The notes beneath the pieces are model-generated. The model was not told where the DNA came from. It was given only the letters and a program-made list of their open reading frames with translations, and searched no databases. The position numbers and the translations under genes are program-made. Of a stretch of DNA of 64,000 bases, positions 16,506-56,506 are shown in pieces; the first letter of the stretch is position 1; every line of letters begins with the position of its first letter. Source of the stretch: an uncultured Fibrobacteraceae bacterium (GTDB lineage: Bacteria > Krumholzibacteriota > Krumholzibacteriia > LZORAL124-64-63); the NCBI GenBank assembly GCA_964420395.1, contig CAYQTJ010000004.1:2506-66505 (forward strand). The letters run 5' to 3'.

Positions 16506-17139
16506 CGACCTGGCGCGGAGCGCCGGCCGACCCGCCCTCGAGGTGGGGTGCGGCGACGGACGCTTCAGCGCCGTGCTCGCGGCCCACGGGGCGCGCCCGT
16601 GGCGGCTCGACCGTCTGCCGCCGCGCCGGGGCACGGTGGCCGACGCCGTGGCCGACGCGCGCGCGCTGCCGCTGGCGGACGGGAGCCTGGGGCTGCTGGT
16701 CGCCGCCAACCTGCTGCGGCACCTCTGGTCGCCCCGCGGCCCGGAGGCGGTGCCCGAGGATTGGCTCCGCTGCATCGCCCCCGACGGCCGGCTCTGGATC
16801 TTCGAGGACGAGCCGGTGTCGCGGCCGCCGGCCGCGCGGCACTACCGGGACGCGATGACCCTGCTGGCGAGGCTCGACCCGGGAGGGCGCCGGCCGCTGC
16901 TGCCGCTCGGCCGGTTCCTGGCGCGGCTGGACGCGGCGGGACGAAGGGACGGCTGGAGGCACGGCATGGCGGTCAACGCCACGCCCGCGGCGGCGCCCGG
17001 AGCGCTGGCGGAGCTGCTCGCCGGGCAGGGGGGTGGGCCCGAGGCGCCCGGCGTCCGGCTGGCGGCCGCCATCCGGCGCGAAGGCCTCAGCTACGGGCCG
17101 TACTGGTGGGCGCGCTGGAGCCGGGAGGAGTCGGCGTGA
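16471..17139 (+). CDS. class I SAM-dependent methyltransferase
   Basis: ALEVGCGDGRFSAVLAAHG (motif I) ... DGSLGLLVAANLLRHL (motif II/III). Confidence 0.65.
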   Translation: MSFSPLPAIFLDDLARSAGRPALEVGCGDGRFSAVLAAHGARPWRLDRLPPRRGTVADAVADARALPLADGSLGLLVAANLLRHLWSPRGPEAVPEDWLRCIAPDGRLWIFEDEPVSRPPAARHYRDAMTLLARLDPGGRRPLLPLGRFLARLDAAGRRDGWRHGMAVNATPAAAPGALAELLAGQGGGPEAPGVRLAAAIRREGLSYGPYWWARWSREESA

Positions 17140-18470
17140 ACGGCTGGCGACGTCGGGGGGCGGGACTGGCGGCCGGGGGGGCGGCGCTGCTGCTGGGCGT
17201 GGCCGGCCTGCTGCTGGACGGCCCCCGGGGCCTGGTGGACTGGCGCGCCGCGCGCGTGGTGGTCCTCGAGAGCGACGACTGGGGCCTGAGCGGCTTCTTC
17301 CCGGAGAGCGCGCCGGCCGCCCCGGCGCGGGCCCTGCTCGGCGGGGGCTTCCCGGCCCCCTATTGGGACTCGACGCTCGAGGACAGCCTCGATGTGGCGT
17401 CCCTGGCCGCGCTCCTGGCGAGGCACGTCGGGCGGGACGGCCTGCCGCCGGTCCTGCAGGCGAACATGATCGTCTCCGCCCTGGAGCCTGAGCGGGCGGA
17501 GGGGGACGCCGCCGCGCCGCTCGCCTGGCGGCGGATCGACCTGCCCGACCTGCCGCGCGGCTACCCGCGCCCCGGCCTGGCCGCGGCGGTGGACGCGGCG
17601 ATCGCCGCGGGGGTCTGGCGGCCCGAGTTCCACGGCGCCTTCCACTACGATCCCGCCCGCCGCCGCGCGGCGCTGGAGTCGCGTCCCGATCTGCGCCCGT
17701 TGCTCGAGGAGACGGTGCTGTTTCCCGGCAGCGACACGGCGTGGGAATTGGGGGCCTGGCGGGCCACCGGGGAGTTGCGGGCGGAACTGGCCGCGGCCGT
17801 GGCGGTCTTCACGGCCCGCTTCGGCCACCGCCCGGTGTCGATCTGCGCGCCCGACTACGTCTGGGATCCCCGTTGCGAGGGGCTGTGGGCGGAGCAGGGG
17901 CTGACGGTGATCCAGGCCAAGCGCGAGCAGCGCGACTCCCGCCGGCCGGGGGGCGGGCCGGCGGCGCGGTTGCGCAAGGTGCTCGGGCGTGCCTGGGATC
18001 GCTGGCGCCACCCGGAGCGGCTCTACCTCGACCGCAATTGCCGGTTCGAGCCGGCGCAGGCGGCCGACAGCGCGGCCGCCGTGGCGGGCTGTGTCGCCGC
18101 GGTCCGGCGGGCCTGGGCTCGCGGCGAGCCGGCCGTCATCGAGACCCACCGCGTGAACTTCGTCAGCCTCGCCCCCGGGGCCGCCGCGCGGGGGCGGCGC
18201 CAACTCGACCTCCTGCTGGCTGCCCTGGCGGCCGAGCCGGGGGGAGGGCCCCTCTATCTGACCGATGCCGAACTGGCCCAATTGGCGCGGGGAGGCACCT
18301 GCCTGGCGTGGCGCGGCGACCGCGTCGTGCTCCGCAACCTGACCCGCGGGACCCGCGTGGCGACGATTCCCGGCCCGGCGGGCGGGGCGGACTCGCTGCT
18401 GGCGATCGCCCCCGGGACCACGCTCGTCCGGCGGGCCGCGGGGGGCCATTTGCGGGCGCCCCGACGGTGA
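17136..18470 (+). CDS. hypothetical protein with N-terminal membrane anchor (possibly a polysaccharide deacetylase-like fold; unassigned)
   Basis: GTG start overlaps the methyltransferase stop. One N-terminal helix (LAAGGAALLLGVAGLLL). No confident family. Confidence 0.4.
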   Translation: MNGWRRRGAGLAAGGAALLLGVAGLLLDGPRGLVDWRAARVVVLESDDWGLSGFFPESAPAAPARALLGGGFPAPYWDSTLEDSLDVASLAALLARHVGRDGLPPVLQANMIVSALEPERAEGDAAAPLAWRRIDLPDLPRGYPRPGLAAAVDAAIAAGVWRPEFHGAFHYDPARRRAALESRPDLRPLLEETVLFPGSDTAWELGAWRATGELRAELAAAVAVFTARFGHRPVSICAPDYVWDPRCEGLWAEQGLTVIQAKREQRDSRRPGGGPAARLRKVLGRAWDRWRHPERLYLDRNCRFEPAQAADSAAAVAGCVAAVRRAWARGEPAVIETHRVNFVSLAPGAAARGRRQLDLLLAALAAEPGGGPLYLTDAELAQLARGGTCLAWRGDRVVLRNLTRGTRVATIPGPAGGADSLLAIAPGTTLVRRAAGGHLRAPRR

Positions 18471-18474
18471 GGAA

Positions 18475-18503
18475 TTGACCCGCCGTCCCTGCTTGTGATA
18501 TCC
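18475..18503 (+). promoter_or_regulatory. putative sigma70-type promoter for giant gene 1 (-35 TTGACC, ~16-17-nt spacer ending in TG, AT-rich -10 GATATC/ATATCC)
   Basis: Lies in the only AT-rich patch of the 283-bp intergenic region. It shares TTGACC-cgCCc..CTT architecture with the promoter upstream of giant gene 2. Confidence 0.35.
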
Positions 18504-18753
18504 TAATAACCAGATCCGGATTCTGGGGAATCTCACCCGCTTTCCTCGGGACCCGGGCCTGCGCCAGTCAAGACAGCGGGCGCGCCGGGCGCGCCGATGA
18601 GACAGCAACCAGCGCTGGACCGGCGGGCTGGTGCCCCGGCCCATTCGCCATCCCGATCGCGCGGCATGCAGGATCCACGTCGTCTCCGGCCGGGCCGGAG
18701 GCAGCTCCCCTGCCGTAGCCCTATCGCCCACCCCCGTCGTTCGGAGGCCGCGG

Positions 18754-21700
18754 ATGAGATTGCGCCCCGCTCTCCTGGCCCTGTTCCTCTGGGTGATGCC
18801 GGCCCTCACCATCACGCTCTGTTCGAGCCCGCGGGAGGCGTGCGGCGCCGTCTCCGGTAGCGGCGCTCAGCTGCGCCAGGAGGTCACGTTCCCCCTTTCC
18901 CGCTCCGGATGGCCGGTGGCGGGGGAGGTCGGCGCCGCGCTGCTCACCGACGAACCGGGCGATCCGCGGGTGCCTTACCACGACGTCGTGCTGCTGCTCC
19001 CGCCGGGGCGGCGGGTCGCGGAGGCACGCTTCGCTCCTCGCGATCCGAGCGAGCGGGAACTGCCGGCGGCGGTGGTCACCGCGGCCCCGGCGCGGGTTTC
19101 CGCCGGGGGCGAGGTGGCCTGGGACCGGCTGCCGGCCGACGGGCCGGCGTATCCGCCGGCCTGGGGGGAACTGCTGGGCGAGACGGTCTGGCACGGCTAC
19201 CGCCTGGCCCACGTACGGCTCTACCCCTGGCAACTGACGCGGGGGGGCACGGGGACGTGGGACGGCGCACGCGCCGCAGCGGGGATGACGATCGAACTGG
19301 CGCTGGCTCCCGTGGCGGACGGCGGCGGTCGCCGGCGCCCGGCGCCGGAGCCGGACGCCGCGCTCAGGGCGCGGCTGCGGGGGCTGGTGGCGAATCCGGA
19401 CGCCGTCGCCGCCTACCCGCTGCCGGGCGTGGCGGCGGCGCGGGATGGCGCCGGCTTCTCGCCGACCTGGGCGCCGAGCCTGCTGGGCGACGATGTGGCC
19501 TACGTGATCATCACGAGCGCCGCGCTCGCGGCGGAGTTCCAGCGCCTGGCCGATTACAAGACCGCGCGGGGCGTCCCGACGGTCGTGCGCACGATCGAGG
19601 CGATCGTCGCCGCGGCGCCGGCCGGGATCGATCTGCCGGCGCAGATCCGCGCCTATTGCGCCGAGGCATACCGCGACTGGGGGACGACGGCTGTCCTGCT
19701 GGGCGGCGACACGCAGATCGTGCCGACGCGACGGATCCTCAACACGCTATATCCCGCGGGCGAGGGGACCGAGATGCCCGTGGACCTCTACTTCGCCTGC
19801 CTGGACGGGGACTGGAACGCCGACCACGACGAGAAGCTCGGCGAAGCCTACATGAATCCCTACGATTCGGGTGACTGGGCCGATCTGGCGGCCGAACTGG
19901 CGGTCGGGCGGGCGCCGGTCGCCACGGCGGCGGAGGCCGCCGTGTTCGTGGACAAGGTCATGGCCTACGAGGGGGGAACCGTCGCCGCGCCGGCTGGCCG
20001 CGCCCTCTTCCTGAGCGAAGTGCTCTTCCCGAGCGCCTGGACCGTCGGCACCCCCATCACCGACGACGGCGCGACGTACAGCGAGGCGATCATCAACGAA
20101 GTCATGGCGGAGTCGCCCATGCCCCCGGCGGCGACGCGGATGTACGAGGCGACCGCGCTCTGGCCCGGCTCGGTCCCCGAGCGGCGCCTCGCGGTGATCG
20201 ACTCGCTCAACACCGGGCACTTCGGGCTGGTCAACCACATCGGCCACGGTTTCTTCTACAACCTGTCCGTGGGCGATGCGACGCTCGATCTGAAGGATGC
20301 CGCCGGGGTCCACAACGACCCGAGCTACTTCATCCTGAACAGCCTCAACTGCTCCTCGTCCGCCTTCGACTACAACAGCATCCTCGAGCGGCTGGTGCTG
20401 AATCCGGGAGGCGGCGCCGTGGCCACGATCGGCTCGGCGCGCGCCGCCTTCCCGACCACCGCCAGCCAGTACCAGCGGGAGTTCTACGCCGCGCTGTTCC
20501 GCGACGGGATCCGGGAGGTGGGCGCAGCGGTGGCGGCCTGCCGCCTGCCTTTCCAGGGGCTGACCGCCGGGAACACGCCGGAGCGCTGGACGCACATGAC
20601 CCTGACGCTGCTCGGCGATCCGACGCTGGCGGTCTGGACCGCGCCGCCGGTGCCTCTCGTGGTCAGCGCGCCGGACACCCTGCCGCTCGGCGGGCAGGAG
20701 GTCGTCGTGAAGGTGACCCGCGGCGGGCTGGCCGTGGCGGGGGCCATGGTCTGCCTGCTCAAGACGGGCGAGTGCTACGCGCGCGGCTACACCGATGCGG
20801 GCGGGGAGGCCCGCCTGCCGGTCGTGGTGAAGTCGGCGGGGGCCGTCGCGCTGAGCGTGACGGCGGCCGACTCGCGCCCCGCGACGCGGACCCTGCCGGT
20901 GAGCGTCGCGCCGAGCCCGTACCTGAAGGTGACCTCGGTCCAGTTCCGGGATGACGGCACGCTCGGCTCGGTCGGCAACGGCGACGGCCTGCCGGATGCC
21001 GGCGAAACGGTGGCGTTGCTGCCGACCTTCACGAACAGCGGGACGGTCCTGGCCACCGGCGCGGTCTCGATGTCGGCATGGACCCTGACCCCGGGGGCGA
21101 CGCTGCTGTCGACCGCGACCGCCGTGCCGCCGCTGGCGCCCGGCGCGTCCGCGGTCGGCGGGAGCCCGCTGCTGCTGCGTCTCGAGGCCGGCGTGCCGGA
21201 CGGCACCCTGTTCACGGTGCAACTGGCCGCCATCGACGGCGGGCGGGTCTACTTGGACGAGATCTCCGAGCGGGGACGCGCGCCCGACCTGCGGCCGACG
21301 ATCATGACGTGGAGCGACTCGCCCGGGGGGGACGGCGACGGCGTGATCGAGCCCGACGAGGAGATCGTGCTGCGCGTGACGCTCCTGAATCCAGGCGGCG
21401 GGCGGGCCTCCGGCCTGACGGCCACCGTCGAGCCGGGAATCGGACTGACGGTGGTGGATGGCAGCGGCGCCTGGCCCGACATCGCGCCGGGGGGCGAGGC
21501 GACTCCGTCCGACGCGGTGAGCGTGCGCCCCGCCTCGCCGGTGTCGGCCGCCCGCGGCACGCTGGTCGTGCAGGACGCCTTCGGACACGAGTGGCGCCAG
21601 CGCTTCGACCTCACGCCGCCCGAACGGCCGACGGGAGTGACCGGCACCTCGCCCGCCGGCGGGGAGTGCCTCCTGCTCTGGACGCCGAACCCGGAGGCGG

Positions 21701-23562
21701 ACCTCTACGGGTATCACGTCTACCGGTCGCTGCAGCCGAATTACGGCTACGTGCGGCTCACCGCGGAACCGGTCACGGGCGGGAGCTTCTACCGCGACAC
21801 CGGACTCGCCGCGCTCACCCGGTACTACTATCAGATCGCCGCCGCCGACTCGTCGCGGCTGCTGAGCCGCGTCACCTCGACGCTCGGCGTCAGCACGGTG
21901 CCGTCGGAGCAGACCGGCTTCCCGATCGAGCTGCCCGCGGAGACGTCGAGCCATCCGGTCGTCGGAGACGTCAACGGCGACGGCCGGCTCGACGTGGTGC
22001 TGCCGGCCAATTACATCTACGTGTGGGACGCGGATGGGGTGGAACTGCGGAACGGCGACGGCGACAGCCAGACGCTCGGCCCCTTCAACTCCACGGCCGC
22101 CGACTGGGCGCCGGCCGGTGCCACGCTGGCCAACCTGACCAGCCGTCCGGGGCTGGAGATCATCGCCTCGAATCGCACCGCGCGGCAGATCTTCGTCTAC
22201 CAGGGGGACGGCACGGTGGCCGCGGGCTGGCCGCGCACGATGAGCGACTGGAACTGGGCGACGCCGGTGGCGGGGGATCTCGACGGGGACGGCGACCTGG
22301 AGGTCATCGCGAACACCGTCACGGGGACGCTCTACGTCTGGCACCACGACGGCACGGACTTCTTCGACGGCGACGCCAACCCCGCCACGGTCGGGGTGTT
22401 CCAGGTGCGCGTCAACGAGTGGTACAGCTTCTGCTCGCCGGCGCTCGCCGACCTCGACCAGGACGGGAAGCTGGAGATCATCCTCGGCACCCGCTACAGC
22501 GGCACGACGCCGGACGTGCTGATGGCGCTGCGCAACGACGGCACGAACCTGCCCGGCTTCCCGGTCAGCTTCGGCCTCTACGGCGAGACGCTCTGCAGCC
22601 CGGCCGTGGGCGATCTCGACCTGGACGGGCGGCTGGAGATCGTGGTGGTCACCGAGAACGATCGCCTGCAGGTCATCCGGCACACCGGGCTGTCGATGGC
22701 GCCGTTCCCGATCCTCTTCGTCTCCAACAACAACCCCGACGGGCTGAGCACCCCGTCGCCGGCGCTCGCCGACCTCGACGGCGACGGCTATCCGGAGATC
22801 GTGGCGGTGTCGGTCACCGACGCGCTGACCGCCGCGGTGCACGCGGTCAGGCGGACCGGCGTCAACCTGTCCGGCTGGCCGCGGGCGGTGGGGGGGAATT
22901 CGGAATCGTCGCCGGTGGTGGCGGACATCAGCGGCGACGGGCATCCGGACGTCCTGTTCGGCATCGGCGGCGGGGCCGACAGCAGCCCCAACGCGCTCTA
23001 CGCGTGGCGCCACGACGGCGGCGTGGTGCCGGGATTCCCGCTGCAGCTCAGCGGGCCGATCCGCCCGACCCCCTGCCTGACGGACCTGAACCAGGACGGG
23101 GACATCGACCTCGTCTACGGCGGCTGGGACCTGCAGATGCACGTCTGGGACCTGCCGGCGGCCTGGAATCCCGACCTGGCGTTCTGGCCCACCTTCAAGG
23201 GCAATCCGCTGCGCAGCGGCCTGGCCGGCCAGCTGTGGATCACCGCCGTGCCCGGGGGGGAGGACGGCGCCCCGCCGGCGGCGGTCGCGCTCGAGGGGAA
23301 TCGGCCCAACCCGTTCAATCCGCGCACGCGGATCACCTTCGCCCTGCCCGGCCCCGGCGCGGTCCGGGCCCGGCTGACCATCTACGACCTGCGGGGGCGG
23401 CGCGTGGCGCAGCTGGTGGACGGCTCCCTGCGGCCCGGGCGCCACACCGTCGACTGGTACGGGCGCGACGACGGGGGCGGGGCGGTCGCCAGCGGGGTCT
23501 ATCTCTGCCGGCTGACGGCCGGCGGGGTGGTGACGGAGCGCAAGATGACCCTGGTGCGGTGA
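18754..23562 (+). CDS. giant secreted multidomain protein: gingipain-like cysteine peptidase (C25) + FN3-like module + ~8 FG-GAP repeats + T9SS-type C-terminal sorting domain
   Basis: Signal peptide (MRLRPALLALFLWVMPALTITLC). C25 region (YVIITSAALAAEFQRLADYKTARGVPTVV..; LLGGDTQIVPTRRI; catalytic-type HIGHG and SLNCSSSAFD). FN3-like segment (GYHVYRS...YYYQIAAADSS). Repeated D-x-[DN]-x-D-G-x-x-[DE] FG-GAP units (DVNGDGRLDVV, GDLDGDGDLEVI, ADLDQDGKLEII, GDLDLDGRLEIV, ADLDGDGYPEIV, ADISGDGHPDVL, TDLNQDGDIDLV). C-terminal NRPNPFNPRTRITFALP...VYLCRLTAGGVVTERKMTLVR tail. Confidence 0.85.
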   Translation: MRLRPALLALFLWVMPALTITLCSSPREACGAVSGSGAQLRQEVTFPLSRSGWPVAGEVGAALLTDEPGDPRVPYHDVVLLLPPGRRVAEARFAPRDPSERELPAAVVTAAPARVSAGGEVAWDRLPADGPAYPPAWGELLGETVWHGYRLAHVRLYPWQLTRGGTGTWDGARAAAGMTIELALAPVADGGGRRRPAPEPDAALRARLRGLVANPDAVAAYPLPGVAAARDGAGFSPTWAPSLLGDDVAYVIITSAALAAEFQRLADYKTARGVPTVVRTIEAIVAAAPAGIDLPAQIRAYCAEAYRDWGTTAVLLGGDTQIVPTRRILNTLYPAGEGTEMPVDLYFACLDGDWNADHDEKLGEAYMNPYDSGDWADLAAELAVGRAPVATAAEAAVFVDKVMAYEGGTVAAPAGRALFLSEVLFPSAWTVGTPITDDGATYSEAIINEVMAESPMPPAATRMYEATALWPGSVPERRLAVIDSLNTGHFGLVNHIGHGFFYNLSVGDATLDLKDAAGVHNDPSYFILNSLNCSSSAFDYNSILERLVLNPGGGAVATIGSARAAFPTTASQYQREFYAALFRDGIREVGAAVAACRLPFQGLTAGNTPERWTHMTLTLLGDPTLAVWTAPPVPLVVSAPDTLPLGGQEVVVKVTRGGLAVAGAMVCLLKTGECYARGYTDAGGEARLPVVVKSAGAVALSVTAADSRPATRTLPVSVAPSPYLKVTSVQFRDDGTLGSVGNGDGLPDAGETVALLPTFTNSGTVLATGAVSMSAWTLTPGATLLSTATAVPPLAPGASAVGGSPLLLRLEAGVPDGTLFTVQLAAIDGGRVYLDEISERGRAPDLRPTIMTWSDSPGGDGDGVIEPDEEIVLRVTLLNPGGGRASGLTATVEPGIGLTVVDGSGAWPDIAPGGEATPSDAVSVRPASPVSAARGTLVVQDAFGHEWRQRFDLTPPERPTGVTGTSPAGGECLLLWTPNPEADLYGYHVYRSLQPNYGYVRLTAEPVTGGSFYRDTGLAALTRYYYQIAAADSSRLLSRVTSTLGVSTVPSEQTGFPIELPAETSSHPVVGDVNGDGRLDVVLPANYIYVWDADGVELRNGDGDSQTLGPFNSTAADWAPAGATLANLTSRPGLEIIASNRTARQIFVYQGDGTVAAGWPRTMSDWNWATPVAGDLDGDGDLEVIANTVTGTLYVWHHDGTDFFDGDANPATVGVFQVRVNEWYSFCSPALADLDQDGKLEIILGTRYSGTTPDVLMALRNDGTNLPGFPVSFGLYGETLCSPAVGDLDLDGRLEIVVVTENDRLQVIRHTGLSMAPFPILFVSNNNPDGLSTPSPALADLDGDGYPEIVAVSVTDALTAAVHAVRRTGVNLSGWPRAVGGNSESSPVVADISGDGHPDVLFGIGGGADSSPNALYAWRHDGGVVPGFPLQLSGPIRPTPCLTDLNQDGDIDLVYGGWDLQMHVWDLPAAWNPDLAFWPTFKGNPLRSGLAGQLWITAVPGGEDGAPPAAVALEGNRPNPFNPRTRITFALPGPGAVRARLTIYDLRGRRVAQLVDGSLRPGRHTVDWYGRDDGGGAVASGVYLCRLTAGGVVTERKMTLVR

Positions 23563-23580
23563 GGGAACGGGGCGCGGCCA

Positions 23581-23609
23581 TTGACCGCGCCCCGCTTCTC
23601 TGGTAAAAT
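23581..23609 (+). promoter_or_regulatory. sigma70-type promoter: -35 TTGACC (23581-86), 17-nt spacer, -10 TAAAAT (23604-09)
   Basis: Near-consensus hexamers with optimal spacing. It sits 245 nt upstream of the giant gene 2 start, implying a long 5' leader. Confidence 0.5.
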
Positions 23610-23853
23610 GGACGAAGTCACACCGGAGTGGGGCGCCGTCGGCGCCGCCGCTCCGCTACCACCTCCCGGAGGGCTGGACGACCGCACCTGGGTAACGGGC
23701 AGCAGTGGCGGGCCGGCAGGGCCGGCCCCGCATTGGCAGCAGCGTTCACAGTCCCCCGAGGAGGCATCCGTTTCCTCACGCAGAAGTCGATGAAGACACG
23801 TGCTTCTCGCGGCTCCGGCCGCGAGTTACGTCGCTATTGACCGGAGGGTATGC

Positions 23854-26800
23854 ATGGATCGCCATCGCCTGATGAGCCGCATCAGCCTGACCGTCGCGAC
23901 GGCCGCGGCGCTGACCTGGGGGACCGTGGCCCTCGGCGCCGGGGCCCCCGCCGCCTTCTTCGAGGGGAGGATCACCGGCGAGCTCTCGTGGGAAACGAAC
24001 GCCTCCGGGGCGGTGACGCCCCGCCTCGCCGGCGGTCGGGCCTGGGCCGAGACGGATCGGCCCGCGCTGGCGGTGCTCGACCTGCGCCTGCTGGTGCCGC
24101 TGGAGGCGGCGCCGGGCGGCGTCGAGGTGGTGCCCCTGGCGACGCACCGCGTGCGGGTGCCGGGGCGGCTGGCCGTCGGTTCGCCGCTCATCAGCAGCGA
24201 CGGGGTCGCCGTGGTCGCGGCCCGGCTCCCTCTGGACGGGGCGGTCTTTCCGGCGCAGTGGGGCGAATTCGGCGGCACGCAGGTCTGGCGGGGCTTCCGT
24301 CTCGCGTCGGTGCGGGTCTACCCGCTGCGGGCCGTGCGTGACGCGGCGGGCGAGTGGAGCGAACTCGAGGTGCTCGACAGCTACGCCATCCGGTTCCTGC
24401 CGGGCGGCGGCAAGCTCGCGGCGGGGGACGCCGCGGAGATCGCCGTGCGCGAACGTCGGGTGCCGGGCGAGCGGGCGCGCGCCGAGGCGGCGCTGGCCGG
24501 CCTGATCGCGAACCCCGGAGGGCTGTCCGGCTACGCGCGCGCCGACGGTGCGGTCGTGGCGGAGCCGGCGGGGGGCTTCGCGCCGAGCCAGACCCCCAGC
24601 CTGGAGGGGAGCCCGGTCCGTTACCTGATCATCACCCGGGAGGCGCTGGCCCCGGCCTTCCAGCGCCTGGCCGATCATCGCACCGCCCTGGGGGACCCTG
24701 CGGTCGTGCAGACGGTGGAGTGGATCGAGGCCAACTACCGCCACGGCGCGGATGTCCAGGAGACGATCCGGCTCTTCATCCGCGAGGCCTATCAGCGCTG
24801 GGGTGTGGAGTACGTCCTGCTCGGCGGCGACACCGACGTGGTCCCGGCCCGCTACATCCACAGCGAGTACTATCCCCCCTCGTCCAGCACCGACGTGCCG
24901 ACCGACCTCTATTTCGGGTGCCTGGACGGGAACTGGAACGCCGATGCCGACGATCTCTTCGGCGAGCACTACGCCAGCTATCTGAATCCCGGCGACAACG
25001 CCGATCTCGCCGACGAGGTGCGGGTGGGGCGCGCCCCGGTCAGCACCGTGAACGCGGTGAACGCGTTCATCGACAAGGTCATCGGCTACGAGCAGCAGGT
25101 GGCGGGGACGGGCTGGCCCAACCGGATGCTGTTCGCCGCGGAGGTGCTGTTCCCGGCCGACTACACCGCGGGGGCGACGATCACCCTCGACGGCGCGAGC
25201 TTCGCCGAGCAGTTGAACAACACCGCGCTCACCCCCTGCACCGGGATGACGCCGACGCGGCTTTACGAGTCGTATCCGCTCTGGCCCGGCTCGACGCGCC
25301 TCTCGCGCGCGGCGTTCACGGACTCCGTCAATACCGGTCACTTCGGCATCGTGAACCAGATCGGTCACGGCTTCTTCGTCAACATGTCGCTGGGCGACGC
25401 CAATTTCACCGTCGCCGACGCCGACGGATTGCACAACACGGGGCGCCCGTTCCTGCTCTATGCCCTCAACTGCGCCTCCGCGGCGTTCGACTACGCCTGT
25501 CTGATGGAGCGCTTCGTGCAGAATCCCAACGGCGGCGCGGTCGCGGCGATCGGCGCGGCCCGGGCCGCGTTCCCGTATACGGCGAACGACTATCAGATTG
25601 AGTTCTTCCGGCTGCTGTTCTGCAACGGCATCCACCGGCTGGGCGACCTGATGAGCCTCAGCCGCCTCCCGCAGCTGGCAGACACCTACTACAACACGGC
25701 CGACCGCTGGACCTTCCTGAACTACACGCTGCTCGGCGACCCCGGCCTGGCGGTGTGGACCGGTGCTCCGCGGCCGGCGAGCGTGGCGGCTCCCGCCTCC
25801 CTCACGGCCGGCGCCCAGTCGGTGACGGTGACCGTGACGGCCGACGGCCTGCCGGTCGAGGGGGCGCTCGTCTGCCTGAGCAAGGAGGGCGACGACTACG
25901 CCTCGGACTTCACGGATGCCGCGGGCCAGGTCTCCCTCGCCTACACCCCGGTCAGCGCCGGCGCGGCCAGCCTGGTCGTAAGCGGAGCGGGGCTGGCCCG
26001 CGAGGCGCGCGATCTGCCGGTGACGGTCCCCGGCGCGTACATCGCGCTCGACGCGGTGACGATCACCGATGACGGCTCCGCCGGCAGCAGCGGCAACGGG
26101 GACGGGCGCTTCGACGCCGGCGAGACGGTGGCGGTGGTCACCCAGTATCGCGACACCGGCACGGGGGGGGCGCTGAACTGCCTCGCCACTCTCAGCGGGG
26201 GGGCGGCCGGCCTGACCATCCTGGACGGCACGGCCAGCGTCGGCAACGTGCCGTCGGGCAGCGTCAAGGCGGCCACGGAGCCGTTCCTGGTGCGTGCCGA
26301 CGCCGCCCTGCCCGACGGTCTGCACGTGGCGTTCTCGGTCACGGTGACCGCGCAGGCCGGGGGGCCGTTCGCCAGCGAGTGGAATCCGGTCGTGCTGGCG
26401 CCGGAGCTGGCGCCGATCGCGCTGACCTGGTCGGACCTGGTCTACGGCAACGGGGACGGCGTGCAGCAGAACGGCGAGCGGATCACCGTGGCGGTGAAGC
26501 TCAAGAACTACGGCGACGGGCTGGCCGGGGCGATCACCGGGCGGCTGCGCAGCATGGACCCGGGCGTGGTCCTGCGCGACACCGTCGCGTCCTACGGCAC
26601 GCTGGCGCTGCTGCAGGAAGGGACCGGATCGGTGCCGTTCTCGCTGTCGGAGACGGACGTCAGCGTCGACCACCCCTGCTGGATCCTCTTCAGCGATCCG
26701 CAGGGGCGCACGGTGCGGCACGACTTCGTACTGAACGCGCCGGCGGCGCCGGCGGCGCCGGCGACCAGCGGCACGCTCGGGCCCGACGTCATCGGCCTGA

Positions 26801-28725
26801 CCTGGGCGCCGGTGACGACCCCGCACCTGCGCGGCTACCACGTCTACCGCGGCACCAGCGCCGGCGGTCCGTTCGTGCGGGCGAACGCCGACCTGGTCGA
26901 GCGCACGTCCTACTTCCGCGACTCCGGTCTCGCCCTGCTGACCCAGTACTTCTACCGGATCGCGGCGGTGGACTCCTCGCTGGTGGAGGGGCCGTTCTCG
27001 GCCGTGGTCTCGCAGAGCACCGCACCGCCGGAAATGGGCGGCTTCCCGCTGCCCATGACTAAGGAGACGAGCGGCCACAACGCCGTCGGCGACGTGGACG
27101 GCGACGGCACGCTCGAGGTCGTGCTCGGGGCGGACGAGGTCTACGTCTGGACCGCCGGCGGTGGCGAGCTGCGCGACGGTGACAACGACGCCCAGACGCT
27201 CGGGCCGTTCACGAACATGTCCAGCGGCACCACGAATCTGAGCTTCTCGCCGTCCGGCATCACCCTGGCCGATCTGGACGACGTACCGGGGCTCGAGATC
27301 ATCGCCAGCGAGAGGGTCCAGAACAAGATCCACATCTTCCGCCGGGACGGCAGCGAACTGCCGGGCTGGCCGCGGTCCCTGGTCGGCACGAGCTGGAACT
27401 GGACCACGCCCGCGGTCGGCGACGTGGACGGCGACGGCGCCCCGGAGATCGTCTGCAACGACATCGCCGGCCGCACCTTCGCCTGGCACCTCGACGGCAC
27501 GGAACTGAGGGACGGCGACAGCAATCCCGCCACGCTCGGCGTGTTCGTGGCGCGCGCCGGCGCGACCTACGAGTATGGCTTCAGCTCGCCCGCGCTGTGC
27601 GACCTGGACGGTGACGGGCGCAAGGAGATCATCTTCGGCTCGAAGCTCTCCGGCGTGCCCAACTACCTCTACGCCTATCGCTACGACGGCAGCCAGGCGA
27701 CCGGCTTCCCGTTCGCGACCGGCAACCTCGGCGCCATCGGGTGCAGCCCCAGCCTTGGAGACCTCGACAACGACGGTCAGCGGGAGATCGTCTTCGTGTC
27801 GGAAGCCGACTCGCTCTATGTCCTGCGGCGGAACGGCAGCCGCTATCCCGGCTTCCCGATCTGGTTCACCGCCAACAGCACCAGCAGCGGCGCCTCCTGT
27901 CCCAGCCCGGCGCTGGCCGACTTCGACGGCGACGGGCGGCTGGAGATCGCGGCGGTGACGGTCACGAACGCCGCGAGCGCGGCCCTGCGGCTGATCGACA
28001 CCGACGTCGCGGGCGGCACCTCCGGCCAGACCATGCCGGGCTGGCCGAAGAGCCTGCCGGGCAACTCGGAGTCCAGTCCCCTGGCGGGGGACATCGACGG
28101 CGACGGCGGCATCGACATCGTGTTCGGGATCGGCGGGGGCGACGAATCGACCCCCAACAACATCTACGCCTTCGAGGCGAGCGGCGCCGCGGTGCCTGGC
28201 TTCCCGATCACCGTCGGGGGGCCGATCCGGCCCTGCCCCGTGCTGTGCGACCTCGACGGGGACGGCAAAGTCAACATCGTCTATGGCGGATGGGACCTGC
28301 AGGTCCACGTCTGGAACCTGCCGTTCGCCTACGATCCGGATCTGATGCCGTGGCCCACCTTCCGCGGCAGCCACTGGCGCGACGGCGTCTACCGGCAGCC
28401 CACCCTGACCGGTGCGCCGGGGGAGGCGCCTCCGGCGGCGCTGGCCGTGGCGCCGAACTTCCCGAACCCGTTCAATCCCGTCACGACGGTGCGGCTCAAC
28501 GTGCCGGGCCCGTCCGGGCAGAGCGTGCCGCTCGGCCTGCGGGTGTACGACCTGCAGGGGCGGCTGGTGCGCGTCCTGCACGCCGGCCCGGCCGCGACCG
28601 GCTGGCGGACCTGGATCTGGGACGGTCGCGACGGCGCCGGGCAGCCGCAGGCGAGCGGCGTGTACCTGCTCCGGGCCGAAGCGGGCGGGCAGGTGCGGAC
28701 GCAAAAGATGGCCCTGGTGAAATGA
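23854..28725 (+). CDS. giant secreted multidomain protein (paralog of 18754..23562): C25 peptidase-like + FN3-like + FG-GAP repeats + T9SS-type C-terminal domain
   Basis: ATG preceded by GGAGGG. Signal peptide (MSRISLTVATAAALTWGTVALGAGA). Same architecture as the upstream giant: YLIITREALAPAFQRLADHRTALGDPAVV; LLGGDTDVVPARYI; QIGHG; ALNCASAAFD; GYHVYRGTSAG...YFYRIAAVDSS; DVDGDGTLEVV, GDVDGDGAPEIV, CDLDGDGRKEII, GDLDNDGQREIV, ADFDGDGRLEIA, GDIDGDGGIDIV, CDLDGDGKVNIV. C-terminal NFPNPFNPVTTVRLNVP...VYLLRAEAGGQVRTQKMALVK. Confidence 0.85.
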   Translation: MDRHRLMSRISLTVATAAALTWGTVALGAGAPAAFFEGRITGELSWETNASGAVTPRLAGGRAWAETDRPALAVLDLRLLVPLEAAPGGVEVVPLATHRVRVPGRLAVGSPLISSDGVAVVAARLPLDGAVFPAQWGEFGGTQVWRGFRLASVRVYPLRAVRDAAGEWSELEVLDSYAIRFLPGGGKLAAGDAAEIAVRERRVPGERARAEAALAGLIANPGGLSGYARADGAVVAEPAGGFAPSQTPSLEGSPVRYLIITREALAPAFQRLADHRTALGDPAVVQTVEWIEANYRHGADVQETIRLFIREAYQRWGVEYVLLGGDTDVVPARYIHSEYYPPSSSTDVPTDLYFGCLDGNWNADADDLFGEHYASYLNPGDNADLADEVRVGRAPVSTVNAVNAFIDKVIGYEQQVAGTGWPNRMLFAAEVLFPADYTAGATITLDGASFAEQLNNTALTPCTGMTPTRLYESYPLWPGSTRLSRAAFTDSVNTGHFGIVNQIGHGFFVNMSLGDANFTVADADGLHNTGRPFLLYALNCASAAFDYACLMERFVQNPNGGAVAAIGAARAAFPYTANDYQIEFFRLLFCNGIHRLGDLMSLSRLPQLADTYYNTADRWTFLNYTLLGDPGLAVWTGAPRPASVAAPASLTAGAQSVTVTVTADGLPVEGALVCLSKEGDDYASDFTDAAGQVSLAYTPVSAGAASLVVSGAGLAREARDLPVTVPGAYIALDAVTITDDGSAGSSGNGDGRFDAGETVAVVTQYRDTGTGGALNCLATLSGGAAGLTILDGTASVGNVPSGSVKAATEPFLVRADAALPDGLHVAFSVTVTAQAGGPFASEWNPVVLAPELAPIALTWSDLVYGNGDGVQQNGERITVAVKLKNYGDGLAGAITGRLRSMDPGVVLRDTVASYGTLALLQEGTGSVPFSLSETDVSVDHPCWILFSDPQGRTVRHDFVLNAPAAPAAPATSGTLGPDVIGLTWAPVTTPHLRGYHVYRGTSAGGPFVRANADLVERTSYFRDSGLALLTQYFYRIAAVDSSLVEGPFSAVVSQSTAPPEMGGFPLPMTKETSGHNAVGDVDGDGTLEVVLGADEVYVWTAGGGELRDGDNDAQTLGPFTNMSSGTTNLSFSPSGITLADLDDVPGLEIIASERVQNKIHIFRRDGSELPGWPRSLVGTSWNWTTPAVGDVDGDGAPEIVCNDIAGRTFAWHLDGTELRDGDSNPATLGVFVARAGATYEYGFSSPALCDLDGDGRKEIIFGSKLSGVPNYLYAYRYDGSQATGFPFATGNLGAIGCSPSLGDLDNDGQREIVFVSEADSLYVLRRNGSRYPGFPIWFTANSTSSGASCPSPALADFDGDGRLEIAAVTVTNAASAALRLIDTDVAGGTSGQTMPGWPKSLPGNSESSPLAGDIDGDGGIDIVFGIGGGDESTPNNIYAFEASGAAVPGFPITVGGPIRPCPVLCDLDGDGKVNIVYGGWDLQVHVWNLPFAYDPDLMPWPTFRGSHWRDGVYRQPTLTGAPGEAPPAALAVAPNFPNPFNPVTTVRLNVPGPSGQSVPLGLRVYDLQGRLVRVLHAGPAATGWRTWIWDGRDGAGQPQASGVYLLRAEAGGQVRTQKMALVK

Positions 28726-28856
28726 CCCGGCGGCGGGCCGACGTCACGCCGCCGGTTGACGGCGCGGCGCCCGCTCCTTAGCATCACGGTCCGGCCCGCG
28801 GCCCCTCCCAGCCGGAGGGGCCGCGGCTTTGGCGGCTCCGGACGGCGGGAGAGGGC

Positions 28857-30516: not shown

Positions 30517-32157
30517 ATGAAAGCAAGCGTGCCGATCCGGACCGCGGTCGCCCTGGCGGGCCTGCTCGCGGCGGCCGGCTGCGGCGATTCGCCGACGCCC
30601 CCGCCACCCCCGCCGGCGGGCTATGTCTTCACCCCCGCGGGCGACGACGTGACCGTGCTGTACGAGGGGCAGGTCGACTTCTCGGTGCGCACGGCGGCGG
30701 GGGGCGAGGTGGCGGCCGTCTTCCGGCGGGGGGACACGGTCCTCGCCACCGGCAGTTCCTACGCCTACGCCGGGACACGGGCCGGGCGGGACTCGCTGCG
30801 GGCCGAGGTGCCGGGGGCGCCGGCCGGCGTGAAGGACTGGCGGATCTGGGTGGAGAGCGGGTACGGCGACCGCCCCGCGCCGGTGCTCGCGTTGACGGCG
30901 GTGATCGGCGCGCGGCCGGGAACGCTGCGCGTGAACTGGCTGCGCGCCGCGCCCGAGCTCAACCCGCTGCCGGTCGCCCGCTACCTGGTGGGGCTGGGTC
31001 GGGACGGGCCGTTGACCGAGCTGAACTGGGACGTGGCGGAGCTGCTGGAAGAGGTGCCGAGCCTCGAAGCGACGGTCGGGTACGGGCGCGACTATGCCGG
31101 ACTGGCCGGCGGCGACACGGTCTGGGTGGGGGTGCGCGCCGAGGACGAGGCCGGCCGCCTCTCGCCGCTGGGGCCGGTGCCCCGGGTCCGGGTGGCGGGG
31201 GCGTACCGCATCGTCGGGACGGCCATCGGGATCGCGGGCGAGCCGCTCGTGGGAATCCTCGCCAGCGTTGGCGAGGCGCCGGAACTGCGGGCCATCACCG
31301 CGGACGGCGGCGGCTTCGACCTGCCGCGGCCGGCGCTCGTGCCCGAGGGCTTCCGGGACATCGACCGGTACGTGCTGTCGGTGCGCGACGAGACCGGCCC
31401 GGACATCGGCACGTACTACGACGTCCGGACCGACACGCTGTCGGCCGCCGATTCCTACCCGCGACCGATCACGCTGGTCGCCGCGCGGACCGCGCAGGGC
31501 GATCCACTCCTCGACCCGGACTGCGCCGCGCTGGTCTACCAGGGGGAGTTCCTCACCTTCCTGAAGCGGATGACCTTCACGGGCATGGGCGGGAACACCC
31601 GGCTCTATCGCTGGGGCCACTATCCGATCACCTACTGGGTGCAGCCGACGGGCGACTGGACGGCCCCGGGCGGCTTCGAGATGGGCCCGCTCGCGCGGGC
31701 CGCCGCCGCCGCCTGGAACGCCCGGCTCGGGGGGACCTTCTTCACGGAATCGGCGGACAGCGTCGCGGCGGACCTGAAGGTTGTCTTCAAGTCCCTCGGC
31801 GGCACGATCTACGGACTCACGGAGATCGTGGCGCCGTACTACGCGGCAATCAACACCATCGTGCCGACCAAGATGAAGATCACGCTGTCGCGCGAATTCA
31901 CGCGCCTGGCCTATGCGCAGGGGGTGGTGCTGCACGAGTTCGGCCACGCGCTCTGCATCGGCAACCACAGCGAATGCCCCGGCTACATGCACATCATGAG
32001 AATCGGCGCGCACGACGTGCCGCTCAGCCCCGAAATCCCGGGCGTCGATACGCAGGGCGAGATGGAGGCGGCCATCAGCGACGACGAGGTGCGCCTCGTG
32101 CACTACATCCGCAATCTCCCGCAGGGCGTCAACATGAATCAATATTTGCTTGACTGA
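30517..32157 (+). CDS. lipoprotein with C-terminal zincin-like HExxH motif (putative secreted metallopeptidase)
   Basis: Lipobox (LLAAAGC), Pro-rich linker (PTPPPPPPAGY), and HEFGHALCIGNHSECPGYMHIM near the C-terminus. Confidence 0.5.
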   Translation: MKASVPIRTAVALAGLLAAAGCGDSPTPPPPPPAGYVFTPAGDDVTVLYEGQVDFSVRTAAGGEVAAVFRRGDTVLATGSSYAYAGTRAGRDSLRAEVPGAPAGVKDWRIWVESGYGDRPAPVLALTAVIGARPGTLRVNWLRAAPELNPLPVARYLVGLGRDGPLTELNWDVAELLEEVPSLEATVGYGRDYAGLAGGDTVWVGVRAEDEAGRLSPLGPVPRVRVAGAYRIVGTAIGIAGEPLVGILASVGEAPELRAITADGGGFDLPRPALVPEGFRDIDRYVLSVRDETGPDIGTYYDVRTDTLSAADSYPRPITLVAARTAQGDPLLDPDCAALVYQGEFLTFLKRMTFTGMGGNTRLYRWGHYPITYWVQPTGDWTAPGGFEMGPLARAAAAAWNARLGGTFFTESADSVAADLKVVFKSLGGTIYGLTEIVAPYYAAINTIVPTKMKITLSREFTRLAYAQGVVLHEFGHALCIGNHSECPGYMHIMRIGAHDVPLSPEIPGVDTQGEMEAAISDDEVRLVHYIRNLPQGVNMNQYLLD

Positions 32158-40552: not shown

Positions 40553-40553
40553 G

Positions 40554-55665: not shown

Positions 55666-55686
55666 GCCGCTCCGCGAGGAGGCCGC

Positions 55687-56505: not shown

Positions 56506-56506
56506 C

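What the first reader, a model, noticed from the sequence alone, without database searches (positions are those of the whole stretch)
18475..28725. Tandem paralogous ~1600-aa secreted gingipain-like (peptidase C25) / FG-GAP beta-propeller proteins with T9SS-type C-terminal tails
Two adjacent genes, 18754..23562 and 23854..28725, encode proteins of ~1600 aa with the same architecture. From N- to C-terminus each has a signal peptide, a propeptide-like region, a clan-CD C25-type catalytic region, an FN3-like module, at least 7 FG-GAP/VCBS calcium-binding repeats, and an ~80-aa C-terminal 'PNPFNP...KM.LVK' domain. The C25 region has candidate His in an IGHG box and Cys in an LNC[SA]S box. The FG-GAP repeats have the form D-x-D-G-D-G-x-x-E-[IV] and suggest an integrin-like beta-propeller. 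The C-terminal domain is typical of T9SS type-A / FlgD-Ig-like sorting signals. This domain combination, in a high-GC non-Bacteroidetes genome, is not a described protease family and would be a new kind of surface-anchored or secreted adhesin-protease. Both genes have their own TTGACC -35 promoter, and the pair is a local duplication.
Basis: partly seen in the sequence, partly recalled or inferred. Interest (0 to 1): 0.78.

Follow-up and report, generated by a model that had tools for sequence, protein, structure and literature searches.

The report
Paired gingipain-like surface proteases, Krumholzibacteria
Two neighbouring genes encode ~1600-residue secreted cysteine proteases related to the gingipains of the gum pathogen Porphyromonas; they belong to a large, uncharacterised family conserved across the uncultured phylum Krumholzibacteriota, so they are real and moderately interesting but not a new kind of system.

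Summary
Genes A (18754..23562) and B (23854..28725) are real, 45% identical, and share one architecture. It runs signal peptide, N-terminal beta-sandwich domain, C25 catalytic domain, Ig-like domain, beta-sandwiches, FN3, eight FG-GAP repeats, then an ~88-aa C-terminal domain.

The C-terminal domain passes the T9SS type-A model for B and falls just below it for A. It carries the sequence motifs shown to matter in P. gingivalis.

Three claims need correcting:
- The host is a Krumholzibacteriia MAG.
- The family is already in databases (>500 relatives, machine-named "C25 family cysteine peptidase"), though no paper I found describes it.
- The pair is an ancient tandem duplication found in 18 of 79 loci, not a local one.

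T9SS machinery could not be checked: none lies in the window.

Most likely these are surface or secreted gingipain-type adhesin-proteases. A PorU/PorZ-like housekeeping role is a minority alternative.

The parts
18475..18504 (+). Sigma-70-like promoter site upstream of gene A (TTGACC, 18-nt spacer, TATCCT), followed by a ~250-nt leader
   Evidence: 3 sites found against 0.2 expected from shuffles
18754..23562 (+). Gene A: 1602-aa C25 peptidase, the upstream ('A-type') paralogue
18868..19467 (+). Gene A N-terminal domain (aa 39-238). It occupies the prodomain position and has no family hit; it is 32% identical to the B domain.
19501..20631 (+). Gene A Peptidase_C25 catalytic domain (aa 250-626). 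His498 is encoded at 20245-20247 and Cys533 at 20350-20352.
21907..23172 (+). Gene A FG-GAP repeat region (aa 1052-1473), with 7 canonical DxDxDG loops
23302..23559 (+). Gene A C-terminal domain (aa 1517-1602). Scores: FlgD_ig 34.0 bits, TIGR04183 21.6 bits (cut-off 23).
23581..23609 (+). Sigma-70-like promoter site upstream of gene B (TTGACC, 17-nt spacer, TAAAAT, with TG extension)
   Evidence: conserved in L004, L007 and L008
23610..23853 (+). Conserved ~245-nt 5' leader of gene B, with predicted pairing between ACCTCCCGG and the Shine-Dalgarno region CCGGAGGGT
23854..28725 (+). Gene B: 1623-aa C25 peptidase, the downstream ('B-type', mainstream) paralogue
23959..24588 (+). Gene B N-terminal beta-sandwich plus helices (aa 36-245), in the prodomain position, with no family hit
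24622..25752 (+). Gene B Peptidase_C25 catalytic domain (aa 257-633). His505 is encoded at 25366-25368 and Cys540 at 25471-25473.
25774..26025 (+). Gene B Ig-like domain after the catalytic domain (aa 641-724). Peptidase_C25_C scores 26.5 bits (cut-off 25).
26041..26727 (+). Gene B beta-sandwich modules (aa 730-958), with no family hit
26734..27018 (+). Gene B FN3 domain (aa 961-1055)
27031..28338 (+). Gene B FG-GAP beta-propeller (aa 1060-1495), with 8 repeats of which one is degenerate
28459..28722 (+). Gene B C-terminal sorting-type domain (aa 1536-1623). Scores: TIGR04183 29.4 bits (cut-off 23), FlgD_ig 37.3 bits.

Best explanation
Genes A and B encode two anciently duplicated, catalytically competent gingipain-type (MEROPS C25, clan CD) cysteine endopeptidases of a Krumholzibacteriia bacterium.

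Proposed mechanism:
1. Each protein crosses the inner membrane through a Sec signal peptide (inferred from the N-terminal sequence).
2. Each is then exported across the outer membrane by a type-IX-like pathway that recognises the ~88-aa C-terminal beta-sandwich domain (inferred).
3. Each acts at the cell surface or in the medium (inferred).
4. The Cys/His dyad cleaves protein substrates.
5. The N-terminal ~210-aa domain may act as a latency or folding prodomain, as in gingipains. This rests on its position only.
6. The Ig-like, beta-sandwich and FN3 modules and the eight-repeat Ca-binding FG-GAP propeller take the place that the haemagglutinin/adhesin modules hold in RgpA and Kgp. They would bind substrate or surface ligands (inferred).

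The genes downstream encode an OppA-type peptide-binding protein and a lipoprotein with an HEFGH zinc-protease motif. This is consistent with protein scavenging, but the evidence is weak because gene order is conserved over the whole region. Each paralogue has its own promoter-like site and a ~250-nt leader.
For: - Shown: Peptidase_C25 E 1.6e-60 and 9.4e-60.
- Shown: the dyad aligns with RgpB His211/Cys244.
- Shown: His, the following Gly, and Cys are invariant in 85 aligned homologues and in 84 of 84 family ORFs from 79 distinct loci, covering both A-type and B-type copies.
- The propeller plus C-terminal domain model has pLDDT 90.3. FG-GAP_3 and FG-GAP score above their cut-offs. The family profile hits CRTAC1 and YesW, which are FG-GAP propellers.
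- C-terminal domain: TIGR04183 scores 29.4 bits for B (cut-off 23). The family profile aligns its C-terminal domain with that of P. gingivalis PorU. The conserved [VI][YF]DxxGRxV and KMxL[VI][KR] motifs correspond to the L-beta3-beta4 motif (FDMNGRR in RgpB, with a functionally required Gly) and the C-terminal Lys motif described in PMC11285876. The same domain ends other, unrelated small ORFs in related genomes.
- T9SS is reported in several non-Bacteroidota FCB phyla (PMC11285876).
- Downstream genes: SBP_bac_5 (E 2.8e-76) and a lipoprotein carrying HEFGH.
Against: - No T9SS machinery gene was found in the 64-kb window. No paper in the library links Krumholzibacteria with T9SS.
- Gene A's C-terminal domain is just below the TIGR04183 cut-off (21.6 against 23). 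Both are below the Pfam PF18962 cut-off, while FlgD_ig, a generic Ig-like model, scores higher.
- The N-terminal domain shows no detectable similarity to the gingipain prodomain.
- Substrate specificity is unknown. Invariant acidic residues (E430, D446 in B) lie near, but do not align exactly with, RgpB Glu152/Asp163.
- Phylum-wide conservation, near-constant length (about 1590-1630 aa) and a fixed chromosomal position are more typical of a housekeeping protein than of a nutritional protease.
- The synteny also covers unrelated genes (LexA, Lon), so neighbours say little about function.
Confidence: 0.6

Rival explanations
1. Housekeeping role in surface-protein processing. The family would be this phylum's functional counterpart of the T9SS sortase PorU, which is also a C25 peptidase with a C-terminal domain. 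The fused beta-propeller would play a PorZ-like role in presenting glycolipid. The enzyme would remove C-terminal domains from cargo and attach the cargo to a surface glycan.
For: - The gene is core to the phylum: at least 520 relatives in species-representative genomes, with 1-3 copies per genome.
- Length is nearly constant and the chromosomal position is fixed, directly downstream of Wzy_C (O-antigen-ligase family), GT4, WecA-like and methyltransferase genes. This holds in 47 of 62 loci with enough upstream flank.
- There are partial hits to NCBIfam PorU models (93-99 bits).
- The propeller plus C-terminal domain model retrieves PorZ (5m11, Foldseek E 1e-8) and PorU (6za2).
- The family profile matches PorU at 2.2e-12, including its C-terminal domain.
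Against: - PorU model scores are far below the cut-off (93-99 against 420 bits).
- The PorZ match has a very low TM-score (0.17-0.20) and reflects only 'a propeller followed by a C-terminal domain'.
- The FG-GAP propeller belongs to a different repeat family from the one that, from my own knowledge, forms PorZ's propellers. This was not tested here.
- The conserved gene order extends to unrelated genes (LexA, Lon, glutamine synthetase), so adjacency to glycan genes is weak evidence.
- Each gene has its own promoter-like site.
Confidence: 0.1
2. The C-terminal FlgD-Ig-like domain is not a T9SS signal. The proteins would be Sec-exported and then kept in the periplasm, or released or anchored by another route. 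They would still be active C25 peptidases.
For: - FlgD_ig is the best-scoring model on the isolated tails (37.3 and 34.0 bits), while PF18962 is below its cut-off (22.3 and 17.6 against 27).
- TIGR04183 fails for gene A.
- No T9SS genes were seen in the window, and none is documented for this phylum in the searched literature.
Against: - TIGR04183 passes for B, and several orthologues carry precomputed PF18962 hits.
- The domain sits at the extreme C-terminus and ends in the Lys-containing motif.
- It has the YDxxGRxV loop motif that matches the functionally required RgpB motif.
- It aligns with the PorU C-terminal domain.
- It recurs at the end of unrelated ORFs, as a sorting tag would.
Confidence: 0.2
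3. The proteins are non-catalytic adhesins built on a degenerate C25 scaffold.
For: More than half of each protein consists of large binding-type modules: the propeller, FN3 and beta-sandwiches.
Against: His, the following Gly, and Cys are invariant in 84 of 84 members. Several other catalytic-domain residues are also invariant: D326, D381, D384, R393 and G447. The catalytic domain is among the most conserved parts between A and B (52% identity; propeller 53%).
Confidence: 0.03

Closest known systems
Gingipains RgpB, RgpA and Kgp of Porphyromonas gingivalis (MEROPS C25; PDB 1cvr, 4ief, 4rbm)
   Same: - The overall order is the same: signal peptide, N-terminal domain, caspase-like C25 catalytic domain, Ig-like domain, (adhesin modules), T9SS-type C-terminal domain.
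- The His-Gly...Cys dyad is aligned and spaced 35 residues apart, against 33 in RgpB.
   Different: - Sequence identity is only about 20-22%.
- The N-terminal domain has no detectable similarity to Propeptide_C25.
- The adhesin part is three beta-sandwiches, an FN3 and an eight-repeat FG-GAP propeller, not the haemagglutinin/'cleaved adhesin' domains.
- The family is core to a whole phylum. Gingipains, from my own knowledge, are confined to a few Porphyromonas species.
- The host is a ~74% GC Krumholzibacteriia MAG.
PorU, the T9SS C-terminal signal peptidase/sortase (NCBIfam NF033707; PDB 6za2)
   Same: - It is a C25-family catalytic domain carried on a large multidomain protein that itself ends in a T9SS C-terminal domain.
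- It is conserved as a core gene across its phylum.
- The family profile matches PorU at E 2.2e-12, including a match between the two C-terminal domains.
   Different: - It scores 93-99 bits against the 420-bit cut-off.
- The domains before and after the catalytic unit are different.
- PorU has no propeller.
Other modular gingipain-like C25 peptidases of uncultured phyla, such as the dockerin-bearing C25 peptidase of Ca. Stygibacter (Cloacimonadota), PMC8542988
   Same: A C25 catalytic module is combined with accessory modules and a C-terminal targeting domain, in a candidate phylum outside Bacteroidota.
   Different: The targeting module there is a dockerin (a cellulosome-like complex). Here it is a T9SS-type C-terminal domain plus an FG-GAP propeller.
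FG-GAP/VCBS beta-propeller proteins (integrin alpha, CRTAC1 9etn, rhamnogalacturonan lyase YesW 2z8r)
   Same: They share repeated DxDxDG Ca-binding loops and an FG-GAP_3/FG-GAP profile. The family profile hits CRTAC1 and YesW.
   Different: Here the propeller is an accessory module of a cysteine peptidase, and its ligand is unknown.

Membership tests
Peptidase family C25 (Pfam PF01364, clan CD) | Profile match above the curated cut-off over the whole catalytic domain | tested here: met
   Scores are 205.8 and 203.2 bits (cut-off 23), covering profile positions 1-373 of 374.
Peptidase family C25 (Pfam PF01364, clan CD) | Catalytic His (His-Gly) and Cys after hydrophobic strands, aligned with RgpB His211/Cys244 | tested here: met
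   The residues are invariant in 85 homologues and in 84 of 84 ORFs from the loci.
Peptidase family C25 (Pfam PF01364, clan CD) | Caspase-like alpha/beta fold followed by an Ig-like domain | tested here: met
Peptidase family C25 (Pfam PF01364, clan CD) | Cysteine endopeptidase activity | not testable with these tools
   This needs a biochemical assay.
Gingipains proper (Rgp/Kgp) | N-terminal Propeptide_C25 prodomain | tested here: not met
   There is no Pfam hit at E<=1 on aa 31-253 of B or aa 31-249 of A. A folded domain does exist at that position.
Gingipains proper (Rgp/Kgp) | Peptidase_C25_C Ig-like domain | tested here: inconclusive
   B scores 26.5 bits (cut-off 25). A has no hit at E<=0.1. 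The Ig domain is present in the model.
Gingipains proper (Rgp/Kgp) | Arg- or Lys-specific S1 pocket with an Asp at its base | tested here: inconclusive
   Invariant E430 and D446 lie in the segment aligned to RgpB residues 146-166, but they are offset by 2-4 positions from Glu152/Asp163.
PorU T9SS sortase (NCBIfam NF033707) | Equivalog model score at or above 420 bits | tested here: not met
   Scores are 92.7 (A) and 99.0 (B) bits, covering the catalytic region only.
PorU T9SS sortase (NCBIfam NF033707) | Closest structural neighbour is PorU | tested here: not met
T9SS type-A C-terminal sorting domain (TIGR04183 / PF18962) | TIGR04183 score at or above 23 bits | tested here: inconclusive
   B scores 29.4 (pass) and A scores 21.6 (just below).
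T9SS type-A C-terminal sorting domain (TIGR04183 / PF18962) | PF18962 score at or above 27 bits | tested here: not met
   Scores are 22.3 (B) and 17.6 (A) bits on the isolated tails. Some orthologues do carry precomputed PF18962 hits.
T9SS type-A C-terminal sorting domain (TIGR04183 / PF18962) | A beta-sandwich of ~70-100 aa at the extreme C-terminus, with the L-beta3-beta4 Gly motif and the C-terminal Lys motif | tested here: met
   The model shows six to seven strands at aa 505-582 of model 2. YDLQGRLV and YDLRGRRV compare with RgpB FDMNGRR. The tails end in KMALVK and KMTLVR. The domain aligns with the PorU C-terminal domain.
T9SS type-A C-terminal sorting domain (TIGR04183 / PF18962) | The T9SS translocon and attachment genes are present in the same genome | not testable with these tools
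   None was found among the window ORFs that were scanned. Whole genomes could not be read.
FG-GAP / VCBS beta-propeller (PF13517, PF01839) | Repeated FG-GAP units with Ca-binding DxDxDG loops forming a propeller | tested here: met
   FG-GAP_3 scores 118.6 and 99 bits, and FG-GAP 65.5 and 40.6 bits. There are 7-8 motifs. The model has pLDDT 90.3 with eight repeated strand groups.

The most novel reading that the evidence does not exclude
The family is not a nutritional protease. It would be the Krumholzibacteriota version of the T9SS attachment machinery: one polypeptide joining a PorU-like C25 transpeptidase to a PorZ-like glycolipid-presenting propeller. It would be kept next to the O-antigen-ligase-like and glycosyltransferase genes that make the anchor glycan. 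The A and B paralogues might then serve different cargo classes.
Probability: 0.1. Interest if true: 0.75.

Novelty: new variant of a known kind. Interest (0 to 1): 0.4.

Why it matters
Gingipains are the model T9SS cargo and a drug target. To my knowledge, close structural relatives have only been studied in Porphyromonas. This family shows the gingipain-type catalytic plus Ig unit as a vertically inherited core gene of a whole uncultured phylum. There it is joined to a different adhesin module and to a C-terminal domain that keeps the motifs needed for T9SS export in P. gingivalis.

That has three uses:
- It gives a natural comparison set for asking which features of gingipains and of their C-terminal domains are ancestral.
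- It suggests that T9SS-type sorting operates in Krumholzibacteriota.
- It points to extracellular proteolysis as a conserved trait of these widespread sediment, soil and wastewater bacteria.

It is not a new class of system.

Tried and rejected
- T9SS machinery. I scanned about 45 candidate ORFs of the window against Pfam and NCBIfam and found no T9SS component.
- Literature. No paper combines Krumholzibacteri* with 'type IX secretion'. None of the six that mention 'secretion system' addresses T9SS. No paper combines 'peptidase C25' with 'FG-GAP'.
- Search with the C-terminal domain alone. It returned only 28 short proteins or fragments, so it did not show the range of cargo. It did show that related tails carry PF18962.
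- PorU membership. Rejected on score and on structure.
- Recent local duplication. Rejected by the NJ tree.
- Operon coupling with the upstream glycan genes. Not accepted, because gene order is conserved over about 35 kb that includes unrelated genes and each C25 gene has its own promoter-like site.
- Leader RNA of gene B. There is no Rfam family in the window. A covariance model built from five sequences found only those five. Two metagenome pattern scans gave nothing or only chance matches. A short upstream ORF in the leader is not conserved (by inspection).
Full report
**1. Observation**

The region holds two long + strand ORFs with clear coding signal: GC3 is 0.93 and GC2 about 0.54, in a window of about 74% GC. 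Both products are exactly on record from an NCBI contig of 68,656 bp, without a name. They are 45% identical over essentially their whole length. By domain, identity is 52% in the catalytic domain, 53% in the propeller, 49% in the C-terminal domain and 32% in the N-terminal domain.

Pfam gives the following for A and B respectively:
- Peptidase_C25: 205.8 and 203.2 bits, covering the full profile.
- FG-GAP_3: 118.6 and 99 bits.
- FG-GAP: 65.5 and 40.6 bits.
- FlgD_ig at the C-terminus.

The IGHG and LNC[SA]S boxes, the DxDxDG repeats, the FN3 module and the PNPFNP...KMxLV[KR] tail are all present. Promoter-like TTGACC sites lie at 18475 and 23581, with a third at 28756 before the next gene. 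That is 3 found against 0.2 expected from shuffles.

**2. What the proteins are**

- *Catalytic dyad.* It aligns with RgpB His211/Cys244 in single-sequence and in profile comparisons. His505, Gly506 and Cys540 (B numbering) are invariant in an 85-sequence alignment. They are also invariant in 84 of 84 family ORFs taken from 79 distinct genomic loci. Both A-type and B-type copies therefore look catalytically competent.
- *Residues 730-958.* The model shows further beta-sandwiches that have no family hit.
- *Residues 961-1055.* An FN3 domain.
- *C-terminal 584 residues.* The model has pLDDT 90.3 and shows eight repeated strand groups followed by a terminal beta-sandwich. Eight DxDxDG-type motifs are present in B, one of them degenerate. 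The profile reaches the FG-GAP propellers CRTAC1 and YesW.
- *N-terminal ~210 residues.* They fold as a beta-sandwich plus helices in the position of a gingipain prodomain. They have no detectable similarity to Propeptide_C25 or to any other Pfam family.

**3. The C-terminal domain**

Profile scores are mixed:
- NCBIfam TIGR04183 (T9SS type A sorting domain) scores 29.4 bits for B, above the cut-off of 23. It scores 21.6 for A, just below.
- On the isolated tails, FlgD_ig scores 37.3 and 34.0 bits. Pfam Por_Secre_tail scores 22.3 and 17.6, below its cut-off of 27.

Beyond the scores, several things point to a sorting domain:
- The family-wide conserved motifs are PNPFNP, [VI][YF]DxxGRxV, SGVY and a terminal KMxL[VI][KR].
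- The second and last of these match the two elements shown to be needed for export in P. gingivalis. These are the loop motif L-beta3-beta4 (FDMNGRR in RgpB, with an essential Gly) and the C-terminal strand with a conserved Lys (PMC11285876).
- The profile aligns this tail with the C-terminal domain of PorU.
- Similar tails end unrelated small ORFs in related genomes.

I therefore read it as a T9SS-type sorting domain. No T9SS machinery gene lies among the scanned ORFs of the window, and whole genomes could not be read. The same paper notes that T9SS is thought to occur in several non-Bacteroidota FCB phyla. That Krumholzibacteriota belongs to the FCB group is from my own knowledge; the taxonomy copy lists it directly under Bacteria.

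**4. Where it comes from and how widespread it is**

A search with gene B returned more than 338 homologues. Nearly all of the 120 listed are 1590-1630 aa long with the same Pfam set. The few that NCBI names are called 'C25 family cysteine peptidase', 'T9SS type A sorting domain-containing protein' or 'VCBS repeat-containing protein', mostly from Candidatus Krumholzibacteriia. A scan of one genome per species found at least 520 loci encoding a relative. The 76 kept are mostly Krumholzibacteriota MAGs or unclassified 'bacterium' MAGs. Some are labelled Fibrobacteraceae or Gemmatimonas yet share the same gene order. A GC content near 70% is typical of such MAGs (PMC10936416).

The family is thus already catalogued by automatic annotation. 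I found no paper that describes it. A modular gingipain-like C25 peptidase has been noted in Cloacimonadota (PMC8542988).

**5. Genomic context and the duplication**

Gene order is strikingly conserved:

ParA-like/CBM48 | Wzy_C | GT4 | WecA-like | methyltransferase | a membrane-anchored protein with no family | one or two C25 genes | SBP_bac_5 | a lipoprotein with an HEFGH motif | PfkB | LexA | Lon

- Of 62 loci with at least 3 kb upstream, 47 have the upstream genes.
- Of 60 loci with at least 2 kb downstream, 41 have SBP_bac_5.

The conserved block includes clearly unrelated genes, so it shows vertical inheritance of a core gene rather than operon coupling.

Tandem pairs occur in 18 of 79 distinct loci. 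In a neighbour-joining tree, gene A groups with the upstream copies of nine other tandem loci. Gene B groups with the downstream copies and with the single-copy orthologues. A second set of tandem pairs (L059-L064) forms its own clade, and L039 has two nearly identical copies, so duplication has recurred.

The window's closest relatives (L004, L007; 81% identical to B) lack both gene A and the upstream unknown gene. A third paralogue lies elsewhere in some genomes. The duplication that produced A and B is therefore old, not local.

**6. Mechanism**

*Shown:*
- C25 membership.
- An invariant dyad.
- The domain composition, and a gingipain-like predicted fold for the catalytic unit.
- A C-terminal domain with T9SS-type motifs.
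- Separate promoter-like sites.

*Inferred:*
- Sec export, from the hydrophobic N-termini.
- Outer-membrane export through a T9SS-like route.
- Action at the surface or outside the cell.
- A prodomain role for the N-terminal domain.
- Ligand binding by the propeller, FN3 and beta-sandwiches, in the place of the gingipain adhesin modules.

The downstream peptide-binding protein and the putative zinc-protease lipoprotein fit protein scavenging, but only weakly. Specificity is open: invariant E430 and D446 lie near, but not exactly at, the positions of RgpB Glu152/Asp163.

**7. Rivals**

- *PorU/PorZ-like housekeeping role.* This is suggested by the core-gene pattern, the constant length, the position next to the O-antigen-ligase-like and glycosyltransferase genes, and weak PorU and PorZ matches. 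Against it, PorU model scores are far below the cut-off and the fold is closer to gingipains. I give it about 0.1.
- *The tail is only a generic Ig domain.* This cannot be excluded without the machinery. About 0.2.
- *A non-catalytic adhesin.* Very unlikely, given the invariance of the dyad.

**8. Verdict**

The finding is real and well described. The novelty claim and the 'local duplication' claim do not hold. This is a new, uncharacterised variant of a known kind (a gingipain-type C25 peptidase with a T9SS-type C-terminal domain). It is notable for its phylum-wide conservation and its propeller module. Interest is 0.4.

**9. Side observation**

The ~245-nt leader between the gene B promoter and its start codon is conserved well above synonymous sites:

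| Orthologue | Leader identity | Fourfold-site identity |
|---|---|---|
| L004 | 0.77 | 0.63 |
| L007 | 0.73 | 0.67 |
| L002 | 0.61 | 0.58 |
| L008 | 0.50 | 0.53 |

The random expectation at fourfold sites is 0.46. L002 keeps the leader even though its copy of the gene sits at a different chromosomal site. The consensus fold pairs ACCTCCCGG with the Shine-Dalgarno region. There is no Rfam match. With only five sequences, covariation cannot be judged.

Noticed in passing
window 23610-23853 (also L004 9755-10000, L007 9757-10000, L002 9762-10000, L008 9673-9913): The ~245-nt 5' leader of gene B is conserved well above synonymous sites. Identity to the orthologues is 0.77, 0.73, 0.61 and 0.50, against fourfold-site identity of 0.63, 0.67, 0.58 and 0.53. 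L002 keeps the leader although its gene sits at a different locus. The predicted fold has stem-loops and a long-range pairing of ACCTCCCGG with the Shine-Dalgarno region. There is no Rfam family. This may be an undescribed cis-regulatory leader, but five sequences are too few to judge covariation.
   Followed up: partly
window 18475-18504, 23581-23609, 28756-28784: Three classical sigma-70-type promoter-like sites (TTGACC or TTGACG, a 17-18 nt spacer, TAnnnT) sit exactly in the three intergenic gaps before gene A, gene B and the SBP_bac_5 gene. That is 3 found against 0.2 expected. The gene B site is conserved in the orthologous loci.
   Followed up: partly
window 23569-23593: A GC-rich hairpin (GGGGCGCGG ... 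CCGCGCCCC) follows the gene A stop codon and overlaps the -35 box of the gene B promoter. It is also present in L004 and L007, which have no gene A upstream.
   Followed up: no
window ~17140-18470 (ORF 16548..18470; coding signal starts near 17100): A conserved protein of ~430-460 aa with one N-terminal membrane anchor has no Pfam, NCBIfam or PDB relative. It lies immediately upstream of the C25 gene(s) in 51 of 82 loci. It is absent, together with gene A, in the window's closest relatives L004 and L007.
   Followed up: partly
window 30517-32157: A conserved lipoprotein (LLAAAGC lipobox) has a C-terminal HEFGHALCIGNH zinc-protease-like motif and no family hit; similarity to MMP-9 is faint and not significant. 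It follows the SBP_bac_5 peptide-binding protein gene downstream of gene B in 32 loci.
   Followed up: partly
window ~6700-39400 and loci L001-L082: About 30 kb of gene order is conserved across much of the phylum. The order is PhoH, glutamine synthetase, DUF212, ParA-like/CBM48, Wzy_C, GT4, WecA-like, methyltransferase, C25 gene(s), SBP_bac_5, PfkB, LexA, HSP20, Lon, GT9. That is unusually stable synteny at 45-80% protein identity.
   Followed up: partly
window 40434-45361: Three consecutive GT9 (heptosyltransferase-type) genes are followed by a DUF3108 protein, then a PMT_2-like and a Bac_transf gene (46379-48684). This is a second envelope-glycan cluster in the window.
   Followed up: no
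L039 4826-9628 and 10001-14803: The two tandem C25 copies are almost identical to each other on the tree. This is either a very recent duplication or an assembly artefact, in contrast with the old A/B pair.
   Followed up: no
L041 4093-4797 (-), L047 220-978 (-); proteins P0124, P0128, P0131, P0135, P0145: Small ORFs or proteins of about 115-250 aa consist of little more than the same C-terminal sorting-type domain. Some are on long contigs, so they are not fragments.
   Followed up: no
window 55687-56505: A DUF6754 protein (E 2e-94) sits among several ORFs with no family (54550-58772), just downstream of a MutL-family (PF13941) gene.
   Followed up: no
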